A stretch of 60,991 bases of DNA, filler included, from Sanchytrium tribonematis (lineage: Eukaryota): the NCBI GenBank assembly GCA_018985235.1. It is 11 parts of 11 records of this genome, joined end to end, with 100 filler letters (N's around TTAATTAATTAA, not from the genome) between each part and the next. Parts side by side here need not be neighbours in the genome. Positions count along the whole stretch, not along the records: positions 1 to 5,512 come from JADGIG010000600.1; positions 5,613 to 11,123 come from JADGIG010000601.1; positions 11,224 to 16,711 come from JADGIG010000602.1; positions 16,812 to 22,261 come from JADGIG010000603.1; positions 22,362 to 27,809 come from JADGIG010000604.1; positions 27,910 to 33,355 come from JADGIG010000605.1; positions 33,456 to 38,897 come from JADGIG010000606.1; positions 38,998 to 44,430 come from JADGIG010000607.1; 3 more parts are not named here. The stretch is one strand, 5' to 3'. Positions 1-47,589 of this stretch are shown piece after piece. Both the position numbers and the translations under genes were made by a program. Positions within the stretch are counted from its first letter, which is position 1, and the number at the start of each line of letters is the position of its first letter. The notes under the pieces were generated by a model. That model searched no databases, had not been told where the DNA came from, and saw only the letters and a program-made list of their open reading frames with translations.

Positions 1-1901
1 TCGTGTAAATGGGAGACCAAATGAATTGATATGGTTGTACTTTCCATTGATATGCATGAATCACTGGTAAATCTGAAGAGATTTGGGCATTTGTGGCAAT
101 GATTTGAGATGTTAAAACAGTCATTTGAGTATTTTGACTATTAATACGAGTAGGACCTAAATAAATTGGAAATACGAGTAACTAGAGTAACATCTACTTG
201 TAATACTACAGTTTGAGTGTCTAATTGCGTCTCTGTTTGAGTTGTATTCTTCAAAGTGGTCCATTTTGAATCAGTCTTTTGCAATTTCGTGGTTGTTGGA
301 TTAAATGTTTTACTTGGAATGTAATAAGTGTGATTAAAATCCAATGGGACAATCCCACATGTCGTATTGCTACTTGAATACACATCATCCAAATTGCAAT
401 AATTGTAAAATGATTTACCAAACACTCCAGGTGACATTGGATTGTTGCTCAAATCACATGAAATTAAATATGTATCATCTTCAATAGACACATCAGAAAT
501 CAAATTATTTTGAATAAACAACTGGCTTGGTCTTTTAAACGATAAATTGCCACTCAAATAATTATTATTGAAAATAAAACTAAGCCCATTAAATTGGAAA
601 TTGATACATCCACTCAATTGATTGTACGATAAATCCAGAGAGTTTGTAGCTTGGAGTGATATTGGGATACTTCCAGTGAATAAATTATGAGTAATATTTA
701 AATATTCAAACGGGGAGATATTTGGAATATTGCCTGTTATAGAATTACCTGACAGATCCAACCAACTAATGGAAAGTGGAATGTTGATGGTTACATTTCC
801 GTTGATTAAATTACGAGCTAATCCAAAGGAAACAATATTTCGTGGCCATGAAATTGGCAAATTTGTAAATTGATTAAAACTCAAATACATATTATAGATC
901 ATAGCATAGCCCAAATCAATATCACCAGATAAATGATTATGAGATAAATCAACACTATCATAGTAAGTGCTATTAAATTTTGGTAAATTTCCAGTAAATA
1001 AATTCCACGATAAATCAAGAGAATAAATAAAATCGAATTCCACATTGGCAATACTGCCATCAAGTAAATTATGACTCAAATTAATACTTCCCAATGACTT
1101 TGGCCATCGATTCGGAACATTTCCACTTAGTTGGTTAAAATCCAGTTTTAGATAAATAAGACTTTCAGGCAAATTTACGATACTTCCATTCAGCTGATTA
1201 AAATTCATTGATAATTCAAATAAACCTAATGGTAAACTAGCTATAGGGCCATATATCATATTATTTGATGCTTCAATAATTGTCAAACTACTTGGAAATG
1301 TCTTTGGCAATTTATCAAAAATTAAATTATTATTAATGGTCAAAGTTCTTAGAGTCACGGTTAGAATAGGGAATGTAGTAAAGCGATTATTGTTTAACTG
1401 TAAAGAAGTAATCCCAGATGGAAAAGATTTGGGCATAACACTCAATAGATTGTCAAATAAACTTAATTCTCGTAATTGGTTTGGAAGTGTATCTGGGATG
1501 GAGCCATATAGTTTATTACTATAAAGATATAAGAATCGAATGGTATTTGGTAGATCATTCGGGATAGTCGTGCTTAATTTTGTATTGTAAATATACATTT
1601 CTCTTAAATTGGATGGGATAAATTGAGATTTCAAAACACCATTAATTTTCACATATCCAAGTTGAAATTTAGTCAGATATAAGTTTGAGCCAATTGTAGT
1701 ACACGTAAAGTAAATTTCACCAAAAGCTTTACCTAGATCAATCCCATAACCACAGCAATTAGCTGGAATACTTTGATATAAGTCTGGATTGGTCATGTGA
1801 AGATTTAAGCCCTGTAAAAAGTTCATGATGACTGGGCAATCTGGGGATATGTCATATAGACACGTCATCATCAGTAGATTGATTAAAATATGCTTTATCA
1901 T
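1..1901 (-). CDS. Secreted/surface leucine-rich repeat protein, 3' end cut by contig edge; one 19-nt intron at 157-175
   Basis: Hydrophobic N-terminus, Cys cap (SPDC...NCCG), many LxLxxNxLxGxIP repeats, C-cap CDLSNNP and a Thr-rich stalk. Removing 157-175 extends the frame (RPTRINSQNTQMTVL...) to the contig edge. Confidence 0.9.
157..175 (-). other. 19-nt spliceosomal intron (predicted)
   Basis: GTATTTCCAATTTATTTAG; removal bypasses the stop at 141-143 and opens a Ser/Thr-rich continuation. Confidence 0.7.
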
Positions 1902-2100
1902 TTCGAAACTTTTGATGGCCTAGTCATGTTTTTATATCAAGAGGCATATGCTGAGCATCGACTACTAACATCATTACTCTTCTCGTGCATATGTTGGATA
2001 ATTTGATTTACCTCTAAAATATCATGAAATTCGCAATATGGAGCAAGAGATCTCATTGGAAACATTCAAATGAAACGGAGACACTTTCTAAACTCTAAAA

Positions 2101-2421
2101 ATGTCAACCATCGCTTCATCAGATTATGCAGACACGATATCATTGACTTATTCTGATTATGACTTTGGGAATGTCTCAGAAATGAATGACGAATTGAGTT
2201 TATTTTATTCTAGTGTTGATTCTGACTTTACAGAAGTAGAATCAGTGAATACGGATACTGAAATTGATTCTAATGCTGATGAATGGCGAACCAATGCATC
2301 CCATATATCAGAATTGACAGAATACATCAACAGACTCAACCAAATTCATGTTTCTCAAAATAGTCATTCCCAGTGGATCAGCCAATGGAATAGTGCTAGT
2401 TCATTTTATAATTCCGTTTAA
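2101..2421 (+). CDS. Small acidic Ser/Asp-rich hypothetical protein
   Basis: 106-aa ATG ORF followed closely by AATAAA; no recognisable motif. Confidence 0.5.
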   Translation: MSTIASSDYADTISLTYSDYDFGNVSEMNDELSLFYSSVDSDFTEVESVNTDTEIDSNADEWRTNASHISELTEYINRLNQIHVSQNSHSQWISQWNSASSFYNSV

Positions 2422-2486
2422 TACTTAATAAATCTATTCACTTTTTAGATATCTGCACTGATCACCCCGTCGATACTCCCAGTTTG

Positions 2487-3809: not shown

Positions 3810-3817
3810 TAAATAGT

Positions 3818-4414: not shown

Positions 4415-5512
4415 TTATTGACTCTCCAAATAATCTGTTTGATGTGACAAATTCGTGCTTTCTCTATTCCTCTTAAAATACACCATCATTTTATCACTAA
4501 ATGGTTTCGATATCCATCCCAATATCAATGCAGATATCACCAATTTGATAATTGCAGTAATGTTTAAATAAAATAAATTGGATTTTGCTACTAAATTCGA
4601 ATCTAAAGTAGATAGGATAGTCGTAAAGGGAATTTCTGATACCATTGATGTTGCATAAGTTTTAAATGTACTAGATGCATCAGATGCTACTGAAATAGTG
4701 CTAGTTGACTTGATATTGTAGATATTCCGAGTTTGTATTTTTGCAGGAGATGTCGATAAAACAATGGTTTCTCCTTTTGAGATAGAATATTTGGATTCAA
4801 CAGTCGTTGTTTGACTGGGTGATTGAATGGTTAATTGCGTAGATGATGTGTATAATTGATTCATTGTCGATGTACTCGTTGATTCCCTATTCAAGGTAGT
4901 CTGAGCAGTAGTTGCAAATGTAAAACGAGTAGTCATTGGCATCGTTGTAAATATCCGACTAGCTGCCAATGTGCAATTATAATTCAAATCTATTATAGTA
5001 GGCACCCTTTGTTGATTCATGGTACATTTACCAGATGGATTATTGGTTAGTAAATTATTAGTCAAATTACATGATTTTAAATATTGATCACCAATTATGG
5101 CAACATTTGTGAAAGAATTGCCAATTAAAGATATTTTGGTGGGATTAGTAAATGAAATATTGCCAATAAACTGATTATTATCAATGATGAGTGAAGATAA
5201 AGTGAGTGGAATTGATAAACAGCCATAAAAATTATTATTACTAGCTTCTAATTCTTGCAACCAATTGGGGATTTCAATGGGACCATGAAATTGATTATTG
5301 CTAATATAAAGACGCATGATATTACCCGGTGGAATTATTGGCAATTTGCCAGAAAATTGATTATTTCTCACATCCAAGTGGGAAATTGAATTTGGTAAAT
5401 TGGGTAGTGCACCATAAAATTGATTATTTTGCAAGTTTAATTGTCTTATTACAGGTGGTAAATTGGAAATCATGCTGTTGAATTGATTGTTATTCAATGT
5501 GAGCGTATTTAG
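4415..5512 (-). CDS. LRR surface protein, 5' end cut by contig edge
   Basis: LxxxNNQFxG repeats, CNLTNN C-cap, Thr/Ser stalk, C-terminal TM helix; frame open to the contig edge. Confidence 0.9.
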   Translation of the reverse strand, partial: LNTLTLNNNQFNSMISNLPPVIRQLNLQNNQFYGALPNLPNSISHLDVRNNQFSGKLPIIPPGNIMRLYISNNQFHGPIEIPNWLQELEASNNNFYGCLSIPLTLSSLIIDNNQFIGNISFTNPTKISLIGNSFTNVAIIGDQYLKSCNLTNNLLTNNPSGKCTMNQQRVPTIIDLNYNCTLAASRIFTTMPMTTRFTFATTAQTTLNRESTSTSTMNQLYTSSTQLTIQSPSQTTTVESKYSISKGETIVLSTSPAKIQTRNIYNIKSTSTISVASDASSTFKTYATSMVSEIPFTTILSTLDSNLVAKSNLFYLNITAIIKLVISALILGWISKPFSDKMMVYFKRNRESTNLSHQTDYLESQ

Positions 5513-6350: not shown

Positions 6351-8969
6351 TTAATGAAGTCTCATAATTCTCATAAATTCTCTTACCCTTGTATTTAATA
6401 TTAATTTATGTCTGGTATTTAATCTGTCCAAATTCAGACTATTTTGGAATAAAAATAAATTATTCTGCAACTTTTTTTTCATTGATGATACTGAATCAAA
6501 TGGTATAACAAAAGCATTGTGTGCATTTTTGCTTAACCAGTCTGCTCTATCATTTAAATAATTGCCATTATGCCCTTTACACCATATAATTTGTAGTGTA
6601 TTTTGAGAAATAAATTGATTGATATGTGGATATGCTTTATGTAAAGCATGTTTAGATGGATCATTACCTTTTAATAAATAATTAGCAACCTTTACGGATG
6701 CTTGATTATCACAATAAATCCGAAATTTTGATAAATGCAAATGATTGGCCAATTCCAAACATTTATCAATTCCAATACATTCTAATTCAGTGGATGAAGG
6801 AATGTTGTAATTGGATGTATTTTGCAATTTAAATTGATATTCATTAATTATATTAATTGAGTTTGGTGCAGATAAAGTGATTCCAATCCCCATATAATTG
6901 CCATTTAAACTGGCATCCGTCATAAATGTGTATCCATTGTAGTTACAATCAATTGTATTGGAATATTCGTGATCATTTTCATTATTTGAAGCTGGTGGCT
7001 GCATTTGTCGATTTGTGAGTGATGGCAAATAGTCAAAAAATCCCCTATTGTTTTGAAAACATTGCAACTTTTTTTGCACATATGGATGAAATTGTCGACA
7101 AATACGGCAAGTATTACGATCATTGGGTCTGAAATCCCATTTCAATAATTTTGATATTCCCGAATGTGGGTTTTCAATAATATACGGATGAAATTTGAAT
7201 AAACCACTTTCACGTGAAAATGATACGTTAGAATAATCTTTTCCAAATCTCCAACTGTAATGCACTTCTTGTTTCTTTCTCAAATACGTATTTCGTTTGA
7301 TTGTATTTGGATAAACGCAAATAGATTTTAATAAATTTGTGGGAATTGATTTTATAGAATGAAGAAGTGATTTCATATATTTTCGCACTTTTACTTGAAG
7401 ATTCTTGTGCTGTGTATCTTTAAACATGACATTCTGAAAACCGAAATCAATGCACGGCGTCAGGTGAGATGTCAATAATGTACTGCATATTTCTAGGGGT
7501 AAACCCAAACGAAAGACACCCAATTTGCGCAATTCGTGCATTTTACAATTCATTCTCTCTAATTTCTTATTAAACATCATTTTTCTATCTATTCCCGACA
7601 AATTTACCCAATATCCCAAATATCGTTGCGTATTTGAAGTGACTAAAATCCCTCTAATTGATGGCTCTAAACGATTATTTGAAGTAATGATGACACTTTT
7701 CTGAATACTAATACTTAATCCAATCACATTTGCACACTCAATGATTTGGTCTATGGCTTCTTCCAATGCTTCTTTGGAATAACAGAGTAGCGCAATATCA
7801 TCAGCATAGAAAATAGATCTGACTGATTCATTCTGCACCAAGTATAAGTCATTTAAACAGTAGGCAAAGATGGATGGTGACAAACTGGATCCCTGCGGGA
7901 TGCCAGATGTCGTATTTATTTTTTCACTCATTTTTTGTAATAACATCATAGATTGATTTGTGATTCGGACTATGTGCAAGGCTAATCTGACGAGGTATTT
8001 GTTATACTGCTGATACAAATTCAATAAATACGACCTATTGATATTGTCGTAGGCCTTCTTTAGGTCAATCAGACAAATGTATTTTACTCTTTCATGATTC
8101 CGATTTCTACTACTGATGATTCTTGAAAAGTGGGATAATGCATCATGTATGCTGGATTTACTAGCAAATCCAAATTGATTTGCTGGAAATCGGATATGTA
8201 TGGTATGGTAAATGTAGTACTCAAATAATTTTCGAATAGTGTATAAAAGGCTGATACCACGGTGTTGATCCATTCCGGCTGCATTTGTGACTTTAGGAAT
8301 TGGAATGAGTGTAGAATCACCAAATTGGGTTGGTACAAAACCAGTAGAGATCATTAATTGTAAAATATTTTTTAAAATATTTTTTAACATTTCTCCTCCA
8401 AACTTGATACTTTCATTTGGAATATCACGAAATCCATATGATTTATGATTTGGCAGCCATTTGATGCAATTGTTGAATACGACGTCATCGATTGTGTGAG
8501 TGTCCCCAAAAGGCACAATCTTTTCAATGGATTTTTTCAAAGCAATGATTTGTTGAGAATGCGATGCATCTGGAAAACGGTAGAGAAAATCAAGTCCAAA
8601 ATCTCTAATAATTTTTAAAAAATGCTTCATTTCGTGTTTTTTAATATGGCCAATTAATGCTTTAAACATATATTCCCAAATGGTAGTGGGATCATTTTCT
8701 AAATTAGCATTCTTAACAATTAAACTAAACAAATCAAATATGGGTGTATTTACAATGATGCCTGCATCTAAATGTAAAGCAGGAATGGTTTTCTCATAAG
8801 CTTCACTTCTGGGTGGTCGTTTTTGAATTGGTGGTTTTACATGTTTATCAGATCTTTCCCAAATATTTTTAATCCAGTTTTTAAATTCGGATTGACTCAA
8901 ACTCGATATCTGCAGAATAGAAGGAATTTCCATTTTGCTTTTTTGGTTTTCATCAATTATTTTCTTCAT
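6351..8969 (-). mobile_element. Non-LTR-type reverse transcriptase + RNase H ORF, no endonuclease seen
   Basis: RT motifs LIPIPK, HRGISLL, NQFGF, IDLKKAYD, GIPQGSSLSP, FYADD, RYLG; CRIC...H...C knuckle-like motif; RNase HI motifs TDAS, ELE, YCDN, WCKGHNGNYLNDRAD. 872 codons, uninterrupted. Confidence 0.92.
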
Positions 8970-12060: not shown

Positions 12061-12223
12061 TGGGGTGTTTCAAAAAATGTGCACAAAATATATTGAAAAT
12101 TTATTGAGATTTTTAATGGCTATTTTAATCAATTTTGGTTGGTTCATTTTTAGATTATTCTAATTTTCAAACCAATCAAACTCGATATTTTCAAATATAA
12201 ATAGAAGCAACTCCCATTTACCC

Positions 12224-13412
12224 ATGATTGCTTTATTTTCTCATTTGATTGCAGCAGTATCACTTGATTGTCCAAAATTGATTCCATTTGCGCAGCAATT
12301 GAATATGCATATCGTGAATACCACTATTTGGAATCAAATGAATGTGGATTGTTGTTTAGCAGCAGGTGTGACTTGTAACAATAACAAGGTGATTGTAATT
12401 CATTGGGGTGATTTGAGATTAAATGGTACTTTAAATGGCAATTTGACAGGGTTATCAGCACTGTTTACGCTGGATTTGTCCAATAATTTGATAAATGGAT
12501 CCATTTCTACATTATTACCAAACAATTTAAACTCTCTACATGTAGAAGGTAATTATTTAAATGGCACATTGACAAATTGGACATTCCCTCCTAAATTACA
12601 GAGCTTATTTATCAATTCAAATCAATTTACAGGATCTTTACCATCTGGTATCTCTCAATTGACACAATTAAATGCCAATTACAATCAATTTAGTGGGATT
12701 GTACCCTATTTGCCACCGAATTTCAACGGACTCGCTGTGGGGAATAATTTGTTGACTGGGTTTGTGAATATTCCACCATTTTTAAAACAATTATATATGG
12801 GTCGCAATTTATTGACTGGTGAATTGCCAATCATGCCAGACTCATTAAGTGTCATATTTATAGGTGGAAATCAATTTACTGGGACAATTAGTGCCTATAA
12901 ACCTCAATATTTGTGGATCAGTGACAATTTATTTACTGGTTTGAATATTACAGATTATTCTGCAATACTTCCAAATCAATGTTCTATTGCTAATAATCCA
13001 TTATTAAGAGCATCTAATTTGCCACCACCAGGTCTTTGTTTTGAAACAGGTCTTTATTCTCTTCAAACGACTCAAGCATCTGGTATATTATATTCATTTA
13101 GTTGTCACTAGAATATTTTACAAGCAGAATACAAGTGCATTGCATCTAGAAACAACTTTATCTAAAATACTTGTTCAAAATAGTTTGTTTTTAAATAGCA
13201 CAAACACTTTGATTTCATATCATTTTGAGATGCACCAACCACCGTTTGAATGGAATATCTTTATGATGATTCGAATATTCATCAATTTACTGGTTATTTC
13301 ATTCAATATCAGATATCTTCCATTTAAAAGATTGAAAACACAATTGATTAAAGAGATTCCAACTCACAGCAAGGAATTTAGTACTCTACCAAGTGAGAAA
13401 CAATCTAAATGA
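12224..13412 (+). CDS. LRR receptor-like membrane protein; exons 12224-13082 and 13102-13412
   Basis: Signal-like N-terminus, SLDC...DCC cap, LRRs, CSIANNPL cap; a 19-nt intron joins the two track ORFs and adds a TM helix and short tail. Confidence 0.9.
13083..13101 (+). other. 19-nt spliceosomal intron (predicted)
   Basis: GTATATTATATTCATTTAG; removal fuses ORF 12224 in frame to ORF 13041-13412. Confidence 0.8.
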
Positions 13413-14899: not shown

Positions 14900-15960
14900 C
14901 AAGTGAAAGTCGAAACTTGTTCACCAATGCATCATAATTGAAGAGCTATCAATATATTTACTTAAAGGAATTGAAAAGTTTTCAGGCAATTGACGAGCCA
15001 ATAAATTCCAGATTTCATTATTATTTACAAAAGGCGTTCTGTAATTTTTATTTGAAATTGTTGCAGAATTGCCTACTTTTTGAATAGCATCAACTATCCC
15101 ATTTTGGTTAAAAATATCTAAAACCGATTCTCTCAACAAATCTGTCAACCCATCTCCAGTCACAATGTGATGCCTTTTCTAAAGCAAGAAGAATGTCCAC
15201 AATGCTGGTTTTTACAGATGTTATTTTTGATATTAGATAAACGTGCGGGGAAATTCTGGTGCCGTCATTTTATCAGTATCAATACCAATACGTCATTTTA
15301 CGAGTGCCTTGAGATTTGAAATGAGTAATATCATTTGAAAATACATTTTTGAGATACTCAGCATGATAAACAAATGATTGCAACATAAATTCATAGACAC
15401 GTTTCAAATTAAATGGAATATTCAAAAATAAATCATTAATGACATTGCTCACAGTTTCATTTCTAGTCTCAAAAAATGGTGGTATAATTCCAAATTTAGC
15501 AGAGTTACATGACCTACATACATATATTGTAAATATGTAACTAAAACACCGGGCATTGACAGTCCAGCACGCAGTCGATTTGCTGTAGAAGAAGGACAAG
15601 ATGTTGAACCTCTTCAGTAGCAGCATTTTTTCTAATAGAATGAGTACCGATATCTGCTGATTTTTGTCATCTATCTTCAAATTCATTTTTACCCTCATTT
15701 TTGATGAATATTTTATTAGTAACGTGGAAAATATCTGGTATTGCGAATCACCAGAAAATGTTTTTTTTGATTCGGGGGAAATGGAGATATTAAATAAACA
15801 CCAAAAGCAAGCACGGGGCAAATTTTCGGGGCAATTGGATTTGCATAAACATTACGCGGATCCCATTTACGATCTCCAGATCGATCGTTCTTCATGTGAC
15901 CAAAGTAGATGCATAATGTATTGTCATACCATTTTTGATGAATAAGGCAAATACTGTTGT
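14900..15960 (-). mobile_element. Degenerate Crypton-type tyrosine-recombinase transposon (multiple frameshifts)
   Basis: Manual translation across frames gives LCIYFGHMKNDRSGDRKWDPRNVYANPIAPKICPVLA, FSGDSQY, DIGTHSIRK (15628-15648), CPSSTANRLRAGLSMPGVLVTYLQY, FGIIPPFF, SFVYHAEYL, MTA/RISPHV. Confidence 0.75.
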
Positions 15961-16508
15961 AGCTGTATGGGTTTTACCGGCAATCCTACTAAACAATTGC
16001 AACTCTCGTAGAATGCTCCTTCAGCTTCTTCCGACCCTCTGACTAGGTGTCAAGTGTCTCATCAGTAGTAACTTTACTATTGAATTCATCAAAATCACAT
16101 ACTAGACTTCTATCACTATCAACGTATTTAATTAAGTCCATAAAAAAGATCATATTTGTAAAAATGTAAATTATCTCTTCAATGATAAATGTTTACCAGT
16201 TGTTAGAATTTTTCTTACTTTATTCTTTTCCTAGATTTGTAGATACCTGCCGATCATCTGAATTTACATTAAGTACATTAATTGGCTTCAAAAGCAGAAG
16301 TTATATACATCAATCTACAATGTCTACTTTATTGGGAATAAAAGAAAGCATTCATGATTTAAATGTATTTCATATTTATTTAGAAACAAAATACATTCAA
16401 GAAATTGGAAAGACCATTATTGCCACGTCAAACAACCATGTTTGAAAGACTAAATGCTTGAGGGAGTCATCTACTAAGTCTCCACTTGTAAAAGCCATTT
16501 CAAAACCC

Positions 16509-16530
16509 AATCAATCAATCAATCAATCAA
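16509..16530 (+). repeat. (AATC)5 microsatellite
   Basis: aatcaatcaatcaatcaatcaa. Confidence 0.9.
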
Positions 16531-16811
16531 GCTGCTCAATTTATCCTAAAAGAGTGCAAATCAGTTCATGATGCATTAGAGCAATGGTACAAAATGAGGG
16601 TATCATTCCTTTAATTCAATGGACACCAAAGCATAAAGTGGGATGTGAGCGAGGTTTTAGTCAAAGAAAAGCAGTGGCTGACTGCTACAACAGATATAAA
16701 TCAAGAGGGAANNNNNNNNNNNNNNNNNNNNNNNNNNNNNNNNNNNNNNNNNNNNTTAATTAATTAANNNNNNNNNNNNNNNNNNNNNNNNNNNNNNNNN
16801 NNNNNNNNNNN

Positions 16812-17375: not shown

Positions 17376-17513
17376 AATAAAAATTGATTTTTCCACCAAT
17401 CAATTTGCACAAATCAACTTGCAGCCAATTTCTCAAATGACAATCTATCCAATCAAGGGAAGCATCACAATATTCAAAGTAAACCAGATCGCATCAAACT
17501 AGTTGGGTATCAA

Positions 17514-27110: not shown

Positions 27111-27144
27111 TTCAATGACGCTGCATGTCATGTCAATTTACATT

Positions 27145-29940: not shown

Positions 29941-29945
29941 ATGTT

Positions 29946-31709
29946 TTATTTTATTAACGACAGAAATGAATTGGAGTCTAAACCCGAATTAAATGTCTTA
30001 AACATAGATGGAGATATAACCGTGGTACCTTTTTTTCTATTCGCAGTGTCGATATTAAAACTTAATAGGTCTTTCAGCTGTTTTTTCATATTTCGTCCAA
30101 CAGCCTTCCCGGCAACTTTTTCGAATTCAAGTTCATCTCCAAATTGATCGTCGTATTTCATTTGCTGAGACAAGTTTGCATTCTTGATTCTCTTCTCGTG
30201 ATCGGCTTTCTCAATTTGCTTTGCCAATAAGAGCCTAGGTTTCAAGTGTGAGCAAATTGAATTTTCAAGAGATAATAACTTAGAATTTGAAATTTCAACT
30301 GCTTTTAAAAATGTCCTATACTTTTGAAATTCTTCAGGCATCGAAAGTGCAATAGAAACACCTTTTCTATCGTAACGAGCTGTTCTGCCACTTCGATGAA
30401 TAAATATATCTACATCTCTCGGAATATCATAATGCACTACGCACTCAGTATCTTCAATATCGAGACCTCTAGCAGCAACATCGCTAGCTATCAAAATGCA
30501 GTTTGGAATGCTTTTAAAATCTTGCAATACTTTTAAACGCTGTCCCATCTTCATGTCACCTCTAATAGTCTTTATACTTCGATCAGGCAAAAGAAGCCGT
30601 AGTGTTCCAGCTAATCTTCTAACACCGTCAAGCGAATTGAGAAAAACCGCCGTTTTTCCAAGATAAGTGTGAGATAAATAATATAATGACAAATCCTTTT
30701 CAACCAACGTGACGCAGTCCATGTGAAAATGAGAAATGTTAGAATTTTTTTTCATATTGATTGTGCAAATTGATGGATTGAACGGAACGGTACCCAATAT
30801 TAATTTAGATTCAAGATTTGGAGTGGCAGAGGCACAACTTATAAAAAAGCTTTTTGACCAATTGGAAGTATCAGAACTAGTTTTCACCCTACGGAGAGCT
30901 AACCCAATTTTGTCAATTCCTTCAAGTCCTTTAAGTTTTTCGAATTCATCTAATATAAGCCATTCACAGTTCAAGTAGACTTTGTATAATAACTTGATTT
31001 CGCCTTCCTCAATTTTGTCGATTTCGTCTACAGAAATAACAGGCAAACTTTCGCTCAATTCTCCAAGCCGTCCAGGGGAAGATACAAGAACAACTTTTTC
31101 ACTTCTCAAGGCGTTAGCCAACATTCTGTCTTGCTTGTCTTGAGACATACCGCCTTGAATTTTTACGACTGACCAATTATCATATTGTGCTGTTAACTCT
31201 TTTAAGATAGTAGTAATTTGATTAACTAATTCTCTAGTTGGCGCCAAAATTAATGCAGACTTGAATCCAATTTGGGAAGTTAGTCTATGAATCATAGGAA
31301 GTAGAAATGACAAAGTTTTACCGCTTCCGGTTTGTGCTCCGATAAGCAGGTGACAAGGGCTTCTTTTGTTTTTACTGTACCATTTGAAAACTTGCTTTTG
31401 AATTTCAGATGGTTCAAAATTAAGCATATTTTGAGGAAGTGGACAGCACCAGCCGGGAAAAGAATGATTCAGTTGCCACTTTCCAAGCAGCACCTGATTT
31501 ATATCCTCGGCGAACGGGTCATCGTCGAAAATATAATTTGTAGGATTCTTATCATCTCCCACTGAGCTGACAGATTGACTATCAGAATTTTCCAAATGTG
31601 CCGGGCTGTAATTTTCAACCACTTCGAGACTTAATAACCCTTCATATCCAAAACCCGTCTCCACTGGTTTCCAATTTAAATCATCCAACTTCTGTCTTTT
31701 TAGTTTCAT
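29946..31709 (-). CDS. DEAD-box RNA helicase, DDX24/Mak5-like
   Basis: EGLLSLEVV N-terminal motif, AQTGSGKT, PTREL, DEFE (variant motif II), SAT, ARGLD, HRSGRTAR. Confidence 0.88.
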   Translation of the reverse strand: MKLKRQKLDDLNWKPVETGFGYEGLLSLEVVENYSPAHLENSDSQSVSSVGDDKNPTNYIFDDDPFAEDINQVLLGKWQLNHSFPGWCCPLPQNMLNFEPSEIQKQVFKWYSKNKRSPCHLLIGAQTGSGKTLSFLLPMIHRLTSQIGFKSALILAPTRELVNQITTILKELTAQYDNWSVVKIQGGMSQDKQDRMLANALRSEKVVLVSSPGRLGELSESLPVISVDEIDKIEEGEIKLLYKVYLNCEWLILDEFEKLKGLEGIDKIGLALRRVKTSSDTSNWSKSFFISCASATPNLESKLILGTVPFNPSICTINMKKNSNISHFHMDCVTLVEKDLSLYYLSHTYLGKTAVFLNSLDGVRRLAGTLRLLLPDRSIKTIRGDMKMGQRLKVLQDFKSIPNCILIASDVAARGLDIEDTECVVHYDIPRDVDIFIHRSGRTARYDRKGVSIALSMPEEFQKYRTFLKAVEISNSKLLSLENSICSHLKPRLLLAKQIEKADHEKRIKNANLSQQMKYDDQFGDELEFEKVAGKAVGRNMKKQLKDLLSFNIDTANRKKGTTVISPSMFKTFNSGLDSNSFLSLIK

Positions 31710-33455: not shown

Positions 33456-35638
33456 AAATATTCCATATACCTGGAGTAGTAGAGGTCCGACAGCAGATGG
33501 TGATTATGGTGTAAATGTGTATGCACCAGGTTCCGCAATCACGTCTATCCCAAAATATAATTTATTTCCCTCTCAATTAATGAATGGGACCTCCATGAGC
33601 TCTCCTAATATGGCTGGTTGTACAGCATTGTTAAAATGTGCCTTTCCTAAATTAAATAGCTATAGATTGCTGAATTGTATTCAAGGCACCCCAGTGGAAC
33701 AAGATCCTCATTTGCAACCATTTATTCAGGTAGTTAAGACATACGAATATTTGCAGAAAACTGAATCAATTAATTTGGATATACTGTTTCAAATCAAAAC
33801 CTCAAAAGGCAGAGGCATTTATGTGCGAAACGTAAATGAACTTGAAAATTTTTCGGATACCATTAGCATTAGATGCATATTTTTAAATGAATATGATCCA
33901 GAGTTTTGTGAAGTTAATGAGAAGAAACTAAATTTTAATGTTAATTTGAAACTAGTCACTAATTGTAGTTTCTTGAATATACCAAAATATTTGCAGTTAA
34001 ATAACATGGGGCGTTCGTTTGGTATCACTATCAATAAGGATTTAGTCCCTACAGGATTAAATACTGGTGATATCTATGCATATGATGGAGACATCTTGCT
34101 GTTTAAGATTCCAGTAACTGTAATCAATCCAATTATTGGTCTTCCAGATATGACTTTGGAAAAATCTCTATTCCAAGGAGGCACTGTGAAAAGATGGTTT
34201 ATTCAAGTACCGGAGGCAAACTCTATGCATTTAAAATTTAGCTTCAATGAAGGTTTAAATAGTCGATACTATGTTCATTGCCAACAACTTGTGAAAGATT
34301 TCAGACATTCTAAATTTGAAGAGCTTTTTGTAATGGATTGTCAATTCAATACATTGAAGAAGATGAATGTTCTACCAAATACAATTATAGAAGTATTATA
34401 TTTTAATGTAGATTTGTGTCGCTCAATTTTGGAGCTCAATTGGATCGCATGAAATTCAATTGCAATTAGAGTTCCATGGTGTTTTTTCGGAACCAATATG
34501 CTCTACCAACCAAGATTTGAATTTGCTTTTAAGAGCACCGTTGAAGAACGAACATGTCACATTGAGCAGTAATTTGACTCACGAACGACTCATTCTTCAA
34601 CCCACCAAGACTTTAATTAATCCAATGAATGATAGAGATCTGGTGTATCAGGCAGACAATGAGCTTTTATTGACTTACAGTCAGAAATTCGATAAGGAAT
34701 CTACTATTATTGTCAAGACAGCTTTGGATAATTTTCTGTATGACAGTGATTTTACACTTTTGTTGCTATTTTTTAAAGACAAAAAGCTAATTCGAACTCA
34801 AGATGTTTACCCAAAATCCTTCAAATTCCAAGGAGAATTGACAATCAAAGTGCAAATTAGACACAATGATGTTTCCAAATTAAAAGAAGTTAATACGGCT
34901 CTAAACATTGATGTGGAAATTGAAAAACAGAAGATTGAATGGCATGAGGCTTTACAATCCAACAAATCTAAATTTTTAATTAAAAAAGGAAAGGATTTAC
35001 GTTTGTATCAGACCCTGTCATGGAATAAACAAGGTACATTTGTCGGTGTTGTAGAGGCAAATGATTTAAAAATTCCGATTCTTGTGCTCTTGAAATCTAA
35101 ACAAGAAGATAAAAAAGAGACTAAACAAGATACAAAATTGATGGGCTTGGTAGATCAATTGGTCAAGACAGACCATACCTTGAAAATTGATTCTTATTAC
35201 TATGATTCACAAATGATTTTAAATGACAAGGCTGACAAATTTACTAAAAAAGTTGATTTTAAAGAATTACTACTCTCTGTTAGTGGTGTTGACAATGAGT
35301 ATTCAATTTACCAAAATGTGATTGTGAAAGCTTATTGTAAGATGCTTCTGAAAGATCTTAATCAAGAAAAATTTGAGCAAATTTGTCAATTGCAAAAGAA
35401 AAAAGATTGGGTACCGGAAAATGAGAAAGATTTATTGCAATTGATAAAAATGCTGGTTGACAAGCAGCTTTATGGAACTGCAATTAAACATATCGTAGCT
35501 TTTAACAAACAGAAATTGAGTGCTGAATTGTATGCCGAATGGATAAAAATTCTTCAACTTTTAAAATGGGATGAATGGGCAAAGCGTGTGGAACAATTAC
35601 TTGTGCTAGATTGCACTATTGACGCATGCTTATTTTAA
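33456..35638 (+). CDS. TPP2: Tripeptidyl-peptidase II, 5' end cut by contig edge; intron at 34393-34411
   Basis: YTWSSRGPTADG, QLMNGTSMSSPN (catalytic Ser), GRGIYVR; spliced junction gives IIE|ICVAQFWSSIG...LEFHG. Confidence 0.93.
34393..34411 (+). other. 19-nt spliceosomal intron (predicted)
   Basis: GTATTATATTTTAATGTAG; removal restores the conserved TPP2 E.C.AQFWSS.G segment and joins two track ORFs. Confidence 0.9.
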
Positions 35639-37846: not shown

Positions 37847-38082
37847 TTGATCAACGCAATATGAGTAAGTAGCCTATAAAGTGAATACATTTTCGCCTAT
37901 TGTTCTAAAATCACACCTGGCTGAAAATTTGCCCGTTTTCGAACGAATAAAATCTTGTCTTCGCACCTCAAAAGAAAATCTAAAAACGATGTTTTCAGGG
38001 CTCAAAAATCGAAAGCAGTCTTTGACTTAGAGCATTCGGTTGTCTTGAGAGACAATTTGTATAGGATCAATAGTTCCCCTTT

Positions 38083-38835
38083 ATGACAAATCAGAAATTC
38101 ACAATCGGCGCTGTAGGTACCAATTTGGTAAAATCTGAGTTTGAGTGCGTTGTTAGTTTTACTGGTGATGGAACTTTAAATCTTAACGTAGAAGATTTAG
38201 AATATTCAAATATAATAGACCTATTCAACTCAACAAATGAATATGTAAGACAACATAAATCAATTTTATACAAATGTCAAGCCGGGATGTCTAGATCTTG
38301 TGCATTTCTAGTAGCTTATTTTATTGGAGAAAAAATATATAACTTGTGCGAGGCTTTGAAAGAATGTAAAAGAATACGTCCAGAAATGTCGATAAATAAG
38401 GGCTTCATATACCAGCTGCAACTTTATGAAAAAATGGGTGGAGTAATAGACATATGGAATCCAGAATATAGAAAATTTAAAGCTTGGTCGAACTTAAAAA
38501 TGAGAGAAACTGGCACGGATTTTGAAAATGATTTTAATGAAGATCCTGAGGTTTTGGACGTTTTACCTCCACTTCCTTTGATAAGATGCAAAAATTGCAG
38601 ACGCAAATTAGCAATGTATTTTTCAGAAAACGATCACCAAAATTGTGACGGTACTATTTCTATTGAACCTCTAAAATGGATGGACATTGCCCAAAAATTA
38701 CAAGGCAAACTCAATTGTCCTAGATGCAAGTCTAAAGTGGGCTCATTTATATGGCAAGGAAGAAGATGTTCTTGTGGTGTATATGTTGCACCTCATTTGA
38801 CTCTTTCATCTAAAAAAATTGACTTGATCAAATGA
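38083..38835 (+). CDS. YVH1: Dual-specificity phosphatase YVH1/DUSP12
   Basis: CQAGMSRS, NKGFIYQLQLY, C-terminal zinc domain CKNCRR...EPLKWM...GKLNCPRC...GSFIWQGRRCSCG. Confidence 0.9.
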   Translation: MTNQKFTIGAVGTNLVKSEFECVVSFTGDGTLNLNVEDLEYSNIIDLFNSTNEYVRQHKSILYKCQAGMSRSCAFLVAYFIGEKIYNLCEALKECKRIRPEMSINKGFIYQLQLYEKMGGVIDIWNPEYRKFKAWSNLKMRETGTDFENDFNEDPEVLDVLPPLPLIRCKNCRRKLAMYFSENDHQNCDGTISIEPLKWMDIAQKLQGKLNCPRCKSKVGSFIWQGRRCSCGVYVAPHLTLSSKKIDLIK

Positions 38836-38897: not shown

Positions 38898-39122
38898 NNN
38901 NNNNNNNNNNNNNNNNNNNNNNNNNNNNNNNNNNNNNNNNNTTAATTAATTAANNNNNNNNNNNNNNNNNNNNNNNNNNNNNNNNNNNNNNNNNNNNACA
39001 TGTGCCTGGGTGTATTTATAGCAAGTAATTTGTATTCCAATTATTGTTTAAATAAAGATTTTTCATTCTTAGGCGGTCAAAATTTTGCTTTGTGATGGGT
39101 TGTTTAATTTGAAACAATTTCA

Positions 39123-40280
39123 ATGGACGAAAAATTATCTTTTAAATACCACTTACTTACATTTACAGCATTAATATTTACGGTGTCAATTTACTCGTTT
39201 TTAATGATTCCAGAAACCTTCTTGCCGCCAAACCTTACTCAAATTTCTCAATTTGAAAAACTCAATTCGAAAATGATATCGAAAGAAACTTCTTTTCAAA
39301 AACCCAAAATAGTCGCCGGCCCCGAACCAGCACCTGCTCTTGCCGAATCAGAGGATGATGTAATATGGGGGCCTAGAAAATTGAAAGGCAAATGTGATCC
39401 TGTATTGTGTCGAGCATTAGCTGGAAATTGCGACCCTGAGGAAGGCTGCGTTTCGGATAGTGGATGGGCTTTAAAGACTGATCAATTTAATGTGCCTCGA
39501 CCACTTTCGAAATATTCTTGGGAAAATGACAATATAACAAGCCGTGCTCTGGAGAAATTACCAGCCAATTCAATTCCATTTATTTTTCACAGAACCTGGA
39601 AAAACACCAAGATACCCAAAGATTATAATCCTTTTTTGAAAGACTGTCTCGATACACATCCAACCTGGAAAAACGTGCTTTGGACAGACAAGGATAATTA
39701 TGAATTAGTTAGAAGAGAATTTCCACAATATTTATACATATATCAAAGGTTTCAAAGGAACATTGAACGTGCGGATTTTATTAGGTATCTTTACATGTAT
39801 CATTATGGAGGACTCTATGTCGATTTGGATGTAGATTGCTTAAAGAATTCAGAGGAATTAATCAAAGACAAAATCATCGTTTTGGGAGCAATGGGTGAAG
39901 ATTTTCCTCACAACGTGCCTAATGCTATTATGTATTCTCGTAAGAAGCATCCATTTTGGCTTTTTGTCGTAAATTTAATCACAACTAAAATGCATCATAA
40001 TATGGGTGTTGAATCCACTACAGGCCCTGTAATTCTAAAAGATGCGTATGAGCTTTTTAGAAAAATCGAGGGTATCGGTGATGATATATATGTAACCAAG
40101 CCTGGATTATTGTATGGAGTTGATTGGAGAAAGCGACCAACAGATTATCCGGAATGCGGAAGTCGATCGCCCACTAGTTTAGAAGTCGATAATTGCAGAG
40201 CTCACTTTCCAGATGTTTATCTGATTACTTATTGGTATCATAGCTGGGAAGATAAATTTACCGTTAGTCATCCAGAATAA
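39123..40280 (+). CDS. GT32 mannosyltransferase (Sur1/Csg1-like MIPC synthase type)
   Basis: Signal anchor, IPFIFHRTWK, LWTD, IERADFIRY, GGLYVDLDV, HPFW, TGP, YWYHSW. Confidence 0.9.
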   Translation: MDEKLSFKYHLLTFTALIFTVSIYSFLMIPETFLPPNLTQISQFEKLNSKMISKETSFQKPKIVAGPEPAPALAESEDDVIWGPRKLKGKCDPVLCRALAGNCDPEEGCVSDSGWALKTDQFNVPRPLSKYSWENDNITSRALEKLPANSIPFIFHRTWKNTKIPKDYNPFLKDCLDTHPTWKNVLWTDKDNYELVRREFPQYLYIYQRFQRNIERADFIRYLYMYHYGGLYVDLDVDCLKNSEELIKDKIIVLGAMGEDFPHNVPNAIMYSRKKHPFWLFVVNLITTKMHHNMGVESTTGPVILKDAYELFRKIEGIGDDIYVTKPGLLYGVDWRKRPTDYPECGSRSPTSLEVDNCRAHFPDVYLITYWYHSWEDKFTVSHPE

Positions 40281-42392: not shown

Positions 42393-43749
42393 CTATTGCT
42401 CTGTTCCAATAACAAGGACTTCATAATAGTGATCAAATGCGAAAACTTTTGTAAATGTAGACCAAAATCCAGGTTCAAGCGGGGACAATGCAGGTATATT
42501 ATTCTCCATACGCAGATAATATTCATCGCAATAAAACAATAAAAGTAGACCATAACCAATCATGAGAACAAACCACATGAAAATGTTAAATGGTAGATAG
42601 AACATGCCTTGTGGGTCTGGTTTTTTGAAAAAAAAGAACAAAACACCAGGCCCGGCATACATGAACATCAAAACTGGGTAAAAAAATCCAAATGCCACGG
42701 AAAGTATAATTTCGTGAATCACTGCAGATATCCAAATAACTGTAACTGCTGCAATATTTTTTGCAAAAGAAAAAGACAAATACTGTTGTAAATAAGCGAC
42801 GCAAGGACAAAATAAATAAGCATATAGCCAGTCGTAAATAACAGCATTCTATGTGAATTGTAAATACCCATCGTCTATAATATTCCGAATATGAAGATGC
42901 CGTCCACCATTCAGAATAAAATCTCCTGTCTCCAAATCTCAATATTTCAGACATGAAATTTAACCAAGAGTGCAAAAATCCATAAAAAACTAAAAATGAT
43001 ATCATTGTGCCTGGTATGATTAAATTAAAATAGTGTATGAAAAAGTTGGTAGTGTACCTTTTTCGGTGCAATTCCAAATAAGAAGTATTAATCCAAATCA
43101 TTGATAGAAAAAACACGCAACACAAAGCATCTACTAAATATCGAATTGCTTTTTTCCACCGAATTTTATCCCTCAAAGGATATTCGTTTCGAAACACCAT
43201 CGAAGGGCACAGTAGGAAATATATATAATGGTGAAAGCCGGTGTAATGGTAGTTTGTTTCTAAAGGCTTATCGTCATTCTTTTTCTCTAGACTGAGGTCG
43301 CCATCGTTCATGACTCTCGCATAAATAAAGGCATATGTTTTCATTACTAATCTAATAGATTCTGCCATAATTATCATGGCACTTCCTAATGGCAGTTTGA
43401 AATGTAAAGTAAAAACTGCAGATGATAAAAAAACTATAAACATATAAAACCAACCAAAAATTAGCCAGATTTTTCCACTTTTAGGATTCAAAAAATAAAT
43501 AGTTAACGTCAAAAATACATTAATGCACCAGCCAATAATAGTAATATGCCATTTCTCAAAGGCCCACAGTATCAAATCAAGGTCAAATATTCTGTTTTGC
43601 ATGATGTAATTTTGTGCACCTAAATTTATCAAGAAAATAAGATATATGGCGAAAGCAATTGAATAAATGCTCTTCACATGCTTGTCTTGCTCAAATAATT
43701 GATCTAATAAGGAATCCTCAACTTTAAATTCCCTACGTCGCAAAAGCAT
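42393..43749 (-). CDS. Sterol O-acyltransferase (SOAT/ACAT/ARE, MBOAT family); intron at 42849-42867
   Basis: LHSWLNF.SE.LRFGDRRFYSEWW, spliced YYRRW|NAVIYDWLY, SAVIHE (catalytic His), FGFFYPVL. Confidence 0.92.
42849..42867 (-). other. 19-nt spliceosomal intron (predicted)
   Basis: GTATTTACAATTCACATAG; removal restores the MBOAT R.WN..V..W motif and joins two track ORFs. Confidence 0.9.
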
Positions 43750-45261: not shown

Positions 45262-45434
45262 TCATTGGTAATTGGACTGGATACTGGTGCTCTCGCCATA
45301 CAAATAATTCGTCGACAATGCCGTAGAAAGACTCGAGAATCCCGCGTGTCCTCCTATAATAAATGACGTCATTTGTCAGAACAATGATTTGATTTTACCC
45401 CAAATATATAGGAGAACTGCTTCAAACACCTACC

Positions 45435-45569
45435 ATGGCGCCAAAAGAAGAGTTCAAAGCAAAACCTAGCAGTAAAAGTGAAAAGAATAAACCAAAGGGT
45501 GGTAAAGCGAAGGATGAGCAACGTGCAAAACGTAAAGCTGCCAAAGAAGCTAAAGCGGCTACTAGATAG
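45435..45569 (+). CDS. 44-aa Lys/Ala-rich microprotein (below ORF-track cutoff)
   Basis: MAPKEEFKAKPSSKSEKNKPKGGKAKDEQRAKRKAAKEAKAATR*; TATATA about 30 nt upstream, ACCATGG context, AATAAA 5 nt after the stop. Confidence 0.65.
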   Translation: MAPKEEFKAKPSSKSEKNKPKGGKAKDEQRAKRKAAKEAKAATR

Positions 45570-45860
45570 AGTGAATAAATGATTTGGGATATAAACTACA
45601 TCCATTTTAAACCGAATGATCTACTTTTCATTGGTAGACGTGCTGTTTTGGGTAGGCATCATGCCAATCAAATGCTGTCTCATCTGGATTTCTCTCTAAA
45701 AATGTTGGAATTTTGAATAAATTTTGAAATAAATTAGATGTGGCTCGTTAAATATCATCCTCAACCAAATCTTTCTTTATCAAATGTCATGGGTCATCAA
45801 AAGCATCAATTTTAATACGTCGCAGGCCAATTTGTTTCTGAATTCATTTTAGAAATTAAA

Positions 45861-47589
45861 ATGATTTTCTCATGTTGTAAATCTACCATTAGATGTCCTA
45901 TATGTACCCACAAATTATCAAAATCAACCAAATGTAAAGTATGTGACTCACTTAAGACCACCAGAAGTTTAAATCAATGTTTTTCTTTCCAAGAAATGCT
46001 CAAATTCTATTCTACAGACACATACTCTTACTGGCTCTTTGAAAACATTCAATCTGGTCAATTTTATGATTATTTATTGTATCTACACCATATCACATAC
46101 ACATCTGTCCCAATTGAAAATGCAGCCAGAATTTTGAATATTTTTGGAAGAAATCCATTAAAAACAATGCATATCCCAAATCATTGGTTATCAGACTATG
46201 TCCAATTTATAGTCAAATTTATTAATCAGATATCCAATCGATCTAAATATGAATATGCTTTACAGGGTGCGATTTTATCACTTGATAAATTATATTGCTT
46301 AAATATGAGTCAAAATGCAGTAGATTCGACTTATTTTATATGTCAGATGCTAGAATACTCTCTAGATGTGAAATCGGACTTTAAAAGATACAAATCCAAG
46401 AAATTTAGTGTTTTAAATCATGTATTTGTGCTTCCTGTTAATTTAAAGTTGAAATATTTAGAATTATTGACAGATCATACTCATAAAATCAAGTTTTTTG
46501 ACCCTAGACATCTCTATATCAATAGAAATACCCTGGTGAGTGATTCAAAAATCCAATTGAAATCTATTAAAACAAATAGGAAATTGAGGGTTGAATTTGA
46601 AGGTGAAGAAGGGATTGATGCGGGTGGAATGGTGAGAGAATGGTCTGTTTTGATGAGTGATTATTTGGCCAGATTCTGTTTCAAAAATGATTGGATTTCT
46701 GAGGATGCTGATGATGAAAATATGTATATTCTAGGATTAATTTATGCTTTATCACTTTTTAATGGGACAGTATTGAATATAAATCTGCCAGTTTATTGGT
46801 TTAAAATGCTATTTGATGAATATTTGACAAATGCTGATTTTAATGCTTTATTCCCTACAGAATGTAAACATTTGAACACTTTACTAAACGAACAAGATAA
46901 TGAGGCATTTGATGATTTATTTGGTGTATTAACATTCTCTAGAATCCTTGAAAATGGCAGAGTTCATGAATTTACTAGAAATGGGTCCTATTTATCACTT
47001 TCTAAATCTAATCTACATGAATATATCCATTTATATAAACAATCCTTGTTGTATTCTGGTAATCAACAGGGATTTAGATCATTTTACGATGGATTTTGGA
47101 GTATTTTACCAAAACAATCTCAAGTTTCAAATTTATTCCGTCCTAAAGATTTACATTGGATTATACAGGGTGATGCCATTATTGATTTGAGACCACTACG
47201 GGATATTTGCATTTATGATTATTCACTTTATCCAATTAAACAAATGAATCCAAAATATCCCCTTCAAAAATTCATTAGAGATTTTTGGGATATTTTGATT
47301 AATGAAATGGATACGCAACAAAAACAAAAGTTTTTAAGATTCTCCACTGGCTGTGATAAAATTAGCACACCTCGTTTTTGTACTACAAAAGAATTTGATA
47401 GACGCGGTCTATATTTTAGAATTAGCATTAGTGGATTAGATTCTGATCATTTGCCAATTGCGCATACTTGTAAATATCATTTATTTAGGTTTTCATGAGA
47501 TTAATTTACGACATTATGCGAATAAACAGAAGTTACGTGAGAAATTGTTTTATGCGATAAATGAATGCTCACAATTTAATATTCAGTAA
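45861..47589 (+). CDS. HECT E3 ubiquitin ligase; intron at 47470-47488
   Basis: LRVEFEGEEGIDAGG..REW, FLRFSTG; spliced end LPIAHTCFHEINLRHYANKQKLREKLFYAINECSQF. Confidence 0.93.
47470..47488 (+). other. 19-nt spliceosomal intron (predicted)
   Basis: GTAAATATCATTTATTTAG; interrupts the catalytic Cys codon; removal restores the HECT C-terminal helix and terminal Phe. Confidence 0.92.

What the first reader, a model, noticed from the sequence alone, without database searches (positions are those of the whole stretch)
157..47488. Uniform 19-nt spliceosomal introns with a fixed branch-point A in an opisthokont
Seen: each split gene I could repair is fixed by removing exactly 19 nt. The five introns are 157-175(-) GTATTTCCAATTTATTTAG, 13083-13101 GTATATTATATTCATTTAG, 34393-34411 GTATTATATTTTAATGTAG, 42849-42867(-) GTATTTACAATTCACATAG and 47470-47488 GTAAATATCATTTATTTAG. 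All five share GTA at 1-3, TT at 11-12, A at 14 (-6 from the 3' end), a pyrimidine at 15 and TAG at 17-19. Three restore conserved motifs (TPP2 AQFWSS, SOAT RWN, HECT HTCF plus terminal helix), on separate contigs. I found no intron of any other length. Known: introns this small occur in chlorarachniophyte nucleomorphs (about 18-21 nt) and heterotrich ciliates (15-16 nt, A at -6); typical fungal introns are much longer. Inference: an independent origin of fixed-length ultra-short introns in a fungus-like lineage, implying a remodelled spliceosome. Standard gene callers would split these genes, as the ORF track does. I cannot confirm this is unreported for the taxon.
Basis: partly seen in the sequence, partly recalled or inferred. 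Interest (0 to 1): 0.93.

Follow-up and report, generated by a model that had tools for sequence, protein, structure and literature searches.

The report
Nineteen-base introns in sanchytrid fungi
Six genes in this DNA, from a fungus that groups with the algae-parasitising sanchytrids, are interrupted by 19-base stretches that are likely real spliceosomal introns; they would be the shortest typical introns I could find reported for a fungus, and public protein models read straight through them.

Summary
Confirmed and extended. All five 19-mers are present, and a sixth (51509-51527, minus) repairs the end of a CENP-A-like histone. For SOAT, TPP2 and HECT, a homology-only scan of 1,911 deletions per gene ranked 19 nt best, with the GT..AG cut among the tied top registers. 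EF-1alpha places the window with Amoeboradix gromovi (Sanchytriomycota, 100/100). Five orthologs from relatives break at the same codons; one is continuous across the exact junction. A. gromovi's SOAT read-through implies 19 nt with A at -6. Two unnamed relatives imply 20 and 27 nt with A still at -6, so the branch-to-AG distance looks more fixed than the length. No RNA evidence was reachable. 'Remodelled spliceosome' is only partly supported: A. gromovi's annotation lists U1, U2AF, SF1, SF3B1 and PRP8 but not SLU7 or PRP18. Tiny introns are known (heterotrichs, mikrocytids, nucleomorphs, myxozoans). I found no report for sanchytrids, whose published genomes were annotated intron-blind. The scan has no earlier sanchytrid note; it noted longer tiny introns in Rozella and Neolecta. 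Verdict: new variant of a known kind.

The parts
157..175 (-). 19-nt intron, phase 1, near the 3' end of an LRR-protein gene (CDS from 1901 to the contig end)
   Evidence: Motif; removal extends the frame from 11 to at least 52 codons, open to the contig end. Not pinned by homology.
13083..13101 (+). 19-nt intron, phase 1, in an LRR-protein gene (exon 1 12224-13082, exon 2 13102-13412)
   Evidence: Motif; removal adds 103 codons with a hydrophobic segment (best 19-residue KD mean 1.85 vs 1.28 unspliced). Similarity of the new tail to a paralog was not significant (56 of 500 shuffles).
34393..34411 (+). 19-nt intron, phase 0, in tripeptidyl-peptidase II (exon 1 33457-34392, open at the contig start; exon 2 34412-35638)
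   Evidence: Tied best of 1,911 deletions against 10 homologs; 132 of 150 homologs align without a gap across the junction; X1 contig spans it with no indel at depth 139.5.
42849..42867 (-). 19-nt intron, phase 0, in sterol O-acyltransferase (exon 1 42868-43749, exon 2 42393-42848)
   Evidence: Tied best of 1,911 deletions; ortholog P0126/P0129 is continuous across the junction; three orthologs break at the same codon; X1 contig spans it with no indel at depth 121.9.
47470..47488 (+). 19-nt intron, phase 1, splitting the catalytic Cys codon of a HECT E3 ligase (exon 1 45861-47469, exon 2 47489-47589)
   Evidence: Tied best of 1,911 deletions against 7 homologs; two orthologs break at the same codon.
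51509..51527 (-).
   Evidence: Out-of-sample hit of the strict pattern. PDB H3 matches stop four residues before the chain end at this site; splicing supplies four residues beginning with Gly; the H3 ending RG is recalled.
16365..16383 (+). Unresolved 19-nt motif match (differs from the 157-175 intron at 2 of 19 positions) in a fragmented region
   Evidence: no homolog pins it.
57768..57799 (-). 32-nt GTA..YTNAY.CAG candidate ending 20 nt upstream of the EF-1alpha start; possible 5'-UTR intron, or chance
   Evidence: untested.
56375..57748 (-). Intronless EF-1alpha, used as the phylogenetic marker
   Evidence: 92% identical to Amoeboradix gromovi; clade of 6 rows with support 100/100.

Best explanation
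Six genes in this sanchytrid-lineage DNA carry a 19-base GTA...YTNAY-N-TAG interruption that is likely a major-class (U2) spliceosomal intron, predicted to branch at the A six bases from its end. Shown: the sequences, the restored reading frames, the shared break points in relatives and the phylogenetic placement. Inferred: U1 and then U6 would bind the minimal GUA donor (about positions 1-6). U2 GUAGUA would pair with positions 9-15, leaving A14 bulged, which gives a 14-nt lariat loop and a 5-nt tail. The AG directly behind the branch site would be used, with no room for a polypyrimidine tract or for scanning. The branch-plus-acceptor block (A at -6) appears fixed across the lineage, while the 5' part varies (19, about 20 and about 27 nt). 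Nineteen is near the shortest length at which the donor and branch helices would not overlap. With so short a branch-to-AG distance Slu7 would be dispensable, which fits its absence (and that of Prp18) from the A. gromovi annotation.
For: Homology-only deletion scan: 19 nt ranked best in 3 of 3 genes, with the GT..AG register among the 2-3 tied top cuts; the rough chance of that coincidence is 2e-7. 132 of 150 TPP2 homologs are ungapped across the junction. Of 6 sanchytrid-like ortholog clusters (4 SOAT, 2 HECT), 5 break at the window's codon and 1 is continuous. The A. gromovi SOAT read-through runs six codons and then the same shifted frame as the window (ECC), which fixes 19 nt; it back-translates to ...Y ACN AAY YTN G, the TACTAAC register with A at -6. 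P0125 and P0132 end YTN-AYN-stop, which 201 of 6,512 stops in the window do (3.1%). Columns 1-3, 11-12, 14 and 17-19 are invariant in 6 of 6 (the sixth was found with that pattern). A14 gives 4-5 of 6 U2 pairs and is best or joint best in 5 of 6. X1 contigs at depth 122-140 carry both tested inserts with no indel or joint. Two X1 differences in SOAT exon 2 are silent in the spliced frame and change residues in the read-through frame (n=2). Core spliceosome genes and DBR1 are listed for A. gromovi.
Against: There is no RNA evidence: splicing and the branch A are inferred. Only six introns come from 60 kb, two of them not pinned by homology. The relatives' introns were seen only as read-through peptides, so 20 and 27 nt assume that the stop is the TAG acceptor; P0123 is uninformative on length. 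In SOAT, A7 pairs with U2 better than A14 (5 vs 4). Two of the four extra strict hits appear to be chance, more than the 0.22 expected. The absence of SLU7 and PRP18 rests on an eggNOG table covering 3,757 of 7,220 proteins of a 92% complete, intron-blind proteome of a relative, searched with recalled identifiers. X1 may be the window's own source run.
Confidence: 0.9

Rival explanations
1. The introns are real, but 19 nt is only the mode of a broader distribution, and the spliceosome is essentially ordinary.
For: Relatives imply 20 and 27 nt; there is a 32-nt candidate upstream of EF-1alpha; most recognition factors are retained. Heterotrichs with 15-nt introns show no appreciable spliceosome reduction (PMC13685798, passages).
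Against: 6 of 6 coding-region introns on six contigs are 19 nt. Sense-strand GTA..YTNAY.YAG matches of other lengths fall inside uninterrupted ORFs or share the 157-175 acceptor. A. gromovi, 49-68% identical at these proteins, also gives 19 at SOAT.
Confidence: 0.3
2. The genes are decoded by +1 ribosomal frameshifting, or the inserts are simply retained and the read-through proteins are used.
For: 19 is 3n+1. Short microsporidian introns are spliced at under 20% on average (PMC6349667, passages), so partial retention is possible.
Against: One-base deletions score far below 19-nt removal (275 vs 314, 101 vs 117, 91 vs 107). The +1 frame holds a stop inside the insert in SOAT, TPP2 and CENP-A. 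Read-through would remove 408 residues of TPP2 and the HECT terminal helix.
Confidence: 0.03
3. The breaks are assembly errors or pseudogene insertions.
For: Published sanchytrid genomes come from whole-genome amplification (PMC8371127), and decayed elements with frameshifts occur in the window.
Against: The same length and signal occur at six sites; X1 contigs agree letter for letter at both tested sites; orthologs from other assemblies break at the same codons with different interior sequence.
Confidence: 0.02
4. The inserts are removed by a protein endonuclease (IRE1/HAC1-type or tRNA-endonuclease-type), not by the spliceosome.
For: Recalled: such introns can be about 20-26 nt long.
Against: There is no shared or stable structure around the junctions (z-scores -0.09 to +1.43 in 6 of 6). 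The ends are GT-AG with a YTNAY site.
Confidence: 0.02

Closest known systems
Heterotrich ciliate tiny introns (Stentor coeruleus, Blepharisma; PMC9505925 and PMC13685798, passages)
   Same: GTA start, AT-rich interior, invariant A six bases from the end, TAG acceptor, intron-poor genes, recognition factors largely retained.
   Different: 15-16 nt and mostly 3n there; 19 nt (3n+1) here, with a recognisable YTNAY branch site. An unrelated lineage, so convergent.
Yarrowia lipolytica introns with fixed branch-to-AG distance (PMC2483917, passages)
   Same: Two bases between the branch motif and AG, which puts the branch A at -6; no polypyrimidine tract; a fungus.
   Different: Yarrowia introns are long (204 and 269 nt in that paper's table row) with strong ACTAAC; here the whole intron is 19 nt and the motif is degenerate.
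Mikrocytid introns (Mikrocytos mackini; PMC10245619, passages)
   Same: Reduced parasite with uniform ultra-short introns in housekeeping genes.
   Different: 16-17 nt, and only 17-19 spliceosomal proteins were identified; A. gromovi's annotation lists U1 proteins, U2AF and SF1.
Chlorarachniophyte nucleomorph introns (Bigelowiella natans; PMC6009652, passages)
   Same: Length range 18-21 nt; GT-AG ends.
   Different: No discernible branch A and 3.1 introns per gene there; an invariant A and about 0.12 per gene here.
Microsporidian short introns (about 25 nt; PMC6349667, passages) and myxobolid/dicyemid introns (lowest median 22 nt; PMC13644364, parts 1-2 of 3)
   Same: Opisthokont parasites with very short introns; donor reduced to GTa in myxozoans.
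   Different: Those are longer. The first E. cuniculi set is 5'-biased, and in myxozoans the putative branch A moves away from AG as length grows. Here the A seems to stay at -6, and the introns found lie mid-gene or 3'.

Membership tests
U2-type spliceosomal intron | GT...AG ends | tested here: met
   6 of 6 GTA...TAG.
U2-type spliceosomal intron | Precise removal restores the conserved protein | tested here: met
   3 of 3 genes with homologs in hand; CENP-A by length; the two LRR genes are not pinned.
U2-type spliceosomal intron | Branch-site sequence able to pair with U2 GUAGUA around a bulged A | tested here: met
   YTNAY at 11-15 in 6 of 6; 4-5 of 6 pairs including G-U; TACTAAC-compatible in relatives. 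U2 motif from PMC13685798; the organism's own U2 was not seen.
U2-type spliceosomal intron | Removed from the mRNA through a lariat at that A | not testable with these tools
   No RNA run could be laid on the window.
U2-type spliceosomal intron | Genome encodes a major spliceosome | tested here: inconclusive
   Core proteins are listed for the relative A. gromovi. The window's own genome is not held, and no Rfam family matched in the window.
Heterotrich-type tiny intron | Length 15-16 nt | tested here: not met
   19 nt in 6 of 6.
Heterotrich-type tiny intron | Invariant A at -6 and GTA start | tested here: met
Chlorarachniophyte nucleomorph-type intron | 18-21 nt, no discernible branch A, several per gene | tested here: not met
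   The length fits, but the A is invariant and the density is 6 per 51 gene models.
Mikrocytid/microsporidian-type strongly reduced spliceosome | Loss of most spliceosomal proteins | tested here: not met
   14 of the 17 factors looked up are listed for A. gromovi; SLU7, PRP18 and U1-C are not. Tested on the relative only.
Endonuclease-cleaved (IRE1 or tRNA-type) intron | Conserved stem-loop or bulge-helix-bulge at the junctions (recalled definition) | tested here: not met
   No fold better than shuffles in 6 of 6.
Sanchytriomycota | Groups with Amoeboradix gromovi | tested here: met
   EF-1alpha clade 100/100 in a 44-row tree; best named hits for SOAT and HECT are also A. gromovi. One-gene tree; genus not determined.

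The most novel reading that the evidence does not exclude
Sanchytrids have independently evolved the shortest modal intron among opisthokonts (about 19 nt, on the order of a thousand per genome). Their spliceosome keeps U1, U2AF and SF1 but has shed Slu7/Prp18, and it sets the acceptor purely by a fixed five-base reach from the branch A, while intron length differs between species.
Probability: 0.4. Interest if true: 0.8.

Novelty: new variant of a known kind. Interest (0 to 1): 0.66.

Why it matters
It would add a fungal phylum to the short list of lineages that splice near the physical minimum, below microsporidia (about 25 nt) and myxozoans (lowest median 22 nt), and without losing U1 or U2AF. 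Ciliates, Yarrowia and sanchytrids would have converged on a branch A at -6, which points to a geometric floor for the second step. Relatives at 19, about 20 and about 27 nt with the same 3' block would form a natural series for asking what limits lariat size. In practice, the public sanchytrid proteomes hold truncated read-through proteins (shown for SOAT and HECT), so roughly one gene in ten may be mis-modelled, which bears on gene-loss claims for this phylum.

Tried and rejected
No whole genome is held, so there was no genome-wide length plot or snRNA search. No RNA holder listed. No relative's DNA was found: the SOAT alignment in viral and metagenome contigs gave none confirmed, and a sanchytrid-specific EF-1alpha pattern gave 0 matches in metagenome, viral and GTDB contigs (it matched the window as a control). 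A 3-periodic coding model trained on the window did not separate true from false junctions and was dropped. The LRR tail comparison was not significant. The protein atlas gave no answer for the LRR exon-2 peptide. The 6-row SOAT tree had no supported branch, so gain versus loss and the order of length change are open. Rejected as introns: 30790-30808 (antisense to a DEAD-box gene); a 39/42-nt candidate after the LRR gene at 23719-24993 (no GTA donor, no A at -6); the 7-residue loop insertion in the H3 variant (the GT..AG candidates I read by eye there are not multiples of three; longer loop 1 is a recalled CENP-A trait); the early stop of the glycosyltransferase at 17388-18419 (a stop where the paralog has Glu). 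tRNA and Rfam scans were empty. The large supplementary PDF and one spreadsheet of PMC8371127 could not be read and might mention introns.
Full report
Observation. The window is 11 contigs of 5.4-5.5 kb, 33% GC, joined by N spacers; no whole genome is held. All five 19-mers are present as quoted. One is a sixth intron, 51509-51527 (minus), at the end of a histone H3 variant. PDB H3 alignments stop four residues before the chain end at this point, and splicing supplies four residues starting with Gly; the H3/Cse4 ending is recalled. One hit is antisense to a DEAD-box gene, one overlaps a minus-strand ORF with no Pfam hit, and one (16365) is unresolved. With a looser pattern 19 nt is the top length among 14-30 (13 vs 4.4), but 15 and 22 nt also ran high (11 each) without yielding gene-extending candidates.

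Are the junctions real? I tested them without splice signals. For SOAT, TPP2 and HECT, 1,911 frame-restoring deletions per gene (1-61 nt, within 45 nt of the site) were scored against 3, 10 and 7 homologs. In all three, 19 nt scored best and the GT..AG cut was among the 2-3 tied top registers. One-base deletions scored 275 vs 314, 101 vs 117 and 91 vs 107. GT..AG 19-mers are 279 of 119,584 positions, so the coincidence is roughly 2e-7. One of the SOAT references (P0126) is a close relative; the two insect-like references also align without a gap. 132 of 150 TPP2 homologs align ungapped across the junction. Pfam places the pieces consecutively: MBOAT 42-238 then 234-336, TPPII_GBD ending at 81 of 91, HECT ending at 278 of 306. 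Contigs of run X1 span the SOAT and TPP2 inserts at depth 122 and 140 with no indel or joint; X1 may be the source run. Two X1 differences in SOAT exon 2 are silent in the spliced frame only. The two LRR introns rest on the motif and frame extension.

Organism. EF-1alpha is 92% identical to Amoeboradix gromovi. In a 44-row tree chosen from the 120 listed hits plus one cluster member, it forms a 100/100 clade with A. gromovi and four unnamed sequences. The best named SOAT (68%) and HECT (49%) hits are also A. gromovi. The window is therefore from the sanchytrid lineage; I did not determine the genus. The paper describing the sanchytrid genomes predicted proteins with TransDecoder on contigs; 'intron' occurs only in a reference title and 'splic' not at all (PMC8371127, passages). 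Accordingly, the collection's models of the window's SOAT and of A. gromovi SOAT and HECT run into the insert and end in junk.

Relatives. Those read-through tails expose the relatives' introns. Of four SOAT ortholog clusters, three break directly after YYRRW with Val (GT) and one (P0126/P0129) is continuous across the exact junction. Both HECT ortholog clusters break after the catalytic Cys. A. gromovi SOAT reads six codons and then the same shifted frame as the window, which fixes 19 nt; its codons give Y ACN AAY YTN G, the TACTAAC register with A at -6. A. gromovi HECT has a stop at positions 12-14, compatible with T12 and A14. P0132 and P0125 end YTN-ACN-stop and YTN-ATG-stop; if the stop is the TAG acceptor, they are 20 and 27 nt with A at -6. 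Such endings precede 201 of 6,512 stops in the window. P0123 is uninformative. A distant TPP2 (P0158, 38% identity) also breaks at the same codon with Val, a single hint that this position is old. No relative's DNA could be fetched.

Mechanism. Shown: consensus GTA, seven mostly A/T bases with A at position 10 in 5 of 6 (post hoc, p about 0.01 uncorrected), TT-N-A-Y, N, TAG; no RNA structure; a stop in the +1 frame inside three inserts. Inferred: ordinary two-step U2-type splicing. U2 GUAGUA would pair with positions 9-15 (4-5 of 6 pairs including G-U; A14 best or joint best in 5 of 6, beaten by A7 in SOAT), giving a 14-nt loop, and the adjacent AG would be used by reach rather than by scanning. 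The A. gromovi eggNOG table (supplementary file 4, whose stored text runs past that sheet) lists PRP8, SF3B1, U2AF35, U2AF65, SF1/BBP, DBR1, U1-70K, U1A/U2B'', PRP40, LUC7, PRP16/PRP22-type helicases, CWC25 and ISY1. It gives no hit for SLU7, PRP18 or U1-C by name or by recalled identifier. Slu7 is unnecessary when the branch-to-3' site distance is 9 nt or less (PMC10158995, passages), so the absence fits. However, only 3,757 of 7,220 proteins are annotated and the proteome is intron-blind, so the loss is a lead, not a result.

Uniformity. In 51 hand-listed gene models (48.5 kb), sense-strand GTA..YTNAY.YAG matches number six at 19 nt. The others, at single or double counts per length, lie in uninterrupted ORFs or share the 157-175 acceptor. 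Ortholog alignments of SOAT, HECT and TPP2 showed no 5-8 residue insertion in the window's proteins; one 10-residue insertion lies in a divergent TPP2 region. Density is about 0.12 per gene. All six introns lie mid-gene or 3', but short first exons would be missed. A 32-nt candidate sits upstream of EF-1alpha.

Comparison. It works like heterotrich tiny introns (15-16 nt, A at -6; PMC9505925 and PMC13685798, passages) and shares the 3' geometry of Yarrowia (PMC2483917, passages). In length it matches chlorarachniophyte nucleomorphs (18-21 nt, no visible branch A; PMC6009652, passages) and lies just above mikrocytids (16-17 nt; PMC10245619, passages). Among opisthokonts, microsporidian introns are about 25 nt (PMC6349667, passages) and myxobolids reach a median of 22, with length classes from 20 (PMC13644364, parts 1-2 of 3). 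A survey of fungal intron evolution showed no sanchytrid clade in the table passage seen (PMC8476143, passages). It files as a U2-type intron by sequence criteria and not as a member of those lineage-specific types.

Novelty. Searches for sanchytrid+intron (2 papers), Amoeboradix+splicing (6, listing only), Sanchytriomycota+intron (4), short-intron phrases with fungal or chytrid terms (1, on ciliates), tiny introns and Sanchytrium+gene prediction gave no report. In the two sanchytrid papers checked, the only 'intron' is a reference title; PMC12225711 and PMC9730499 were seen as listings only. The library lacks most subscription papers, and the large supplementary PDF of PMC8371127 was unreadable. 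The scan holds no sanchytrid note; unchecked notes describe 25-32-nt introns in Rozella and 30-45-nt introns in Neolecta.

Verdict. Real introns, about 0.9. Genome-wide near-uniform 19 nt in this species, about 0.7. Loss of SLU7/PRP18, about 0.5. New variant of a known kind; interest 0.66.

Noticed in passing
window 57768-57799 (-): 32-nt GTA..TTAAT.CAG stretch ending 20 nt before the EF-1alpha start; a possible 5'-UTR intron that would break strict uniformity.
   Followed up: no
window 6354-8969 (-): Intact 872-codon reverse transcriptase plus RNase H ORF (Pfam RVT_1, RNase_H), likely a retroelement.
   Followed up: no
window 14900-16711 and 26300-27800: Fragmented, frameshifted ORFs with no Pfam hit; recalled resemblance to Ndc10/Crypton-like and integrase-like remnants. 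They hold the unresolved motif matches at 16365 and 26836.
   Followed up: partly
window 144-1919, 4418-5512, 12164-13412, 23719-24993: Four members of an LRR protein family with hydrophobic N-termini and Ser/Thr-rich linkers on three of the 11 contigs; likely an expanded surface-protein family.
   Followed up: partly
window 19977-22012 (-): Tandem array of short, divergent C2H2-type zinc-finger genes sharing a C-terminal HG.P motif.
   Followed up: no
window 33756-33930 and 38053-38673: Run X1 shows two alleles in short blocks at about half depth, consistent with heterozygosity or a mixed population.
   Followed up: no
protein P0158 (TPP2 homolog, 38% identity): Truncated at the same phase-0 codon with a Val-starting tail, which hints that the TPP2 intron position is shared with a distant lineage.
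   Followed up: partly
window 16812-18419, 39108-40277: Three glycosyltransferase family 32-like genes (Pfam PF04488); the copy at 17388-18419 stops earlier than its paralog.
   Followed up: no
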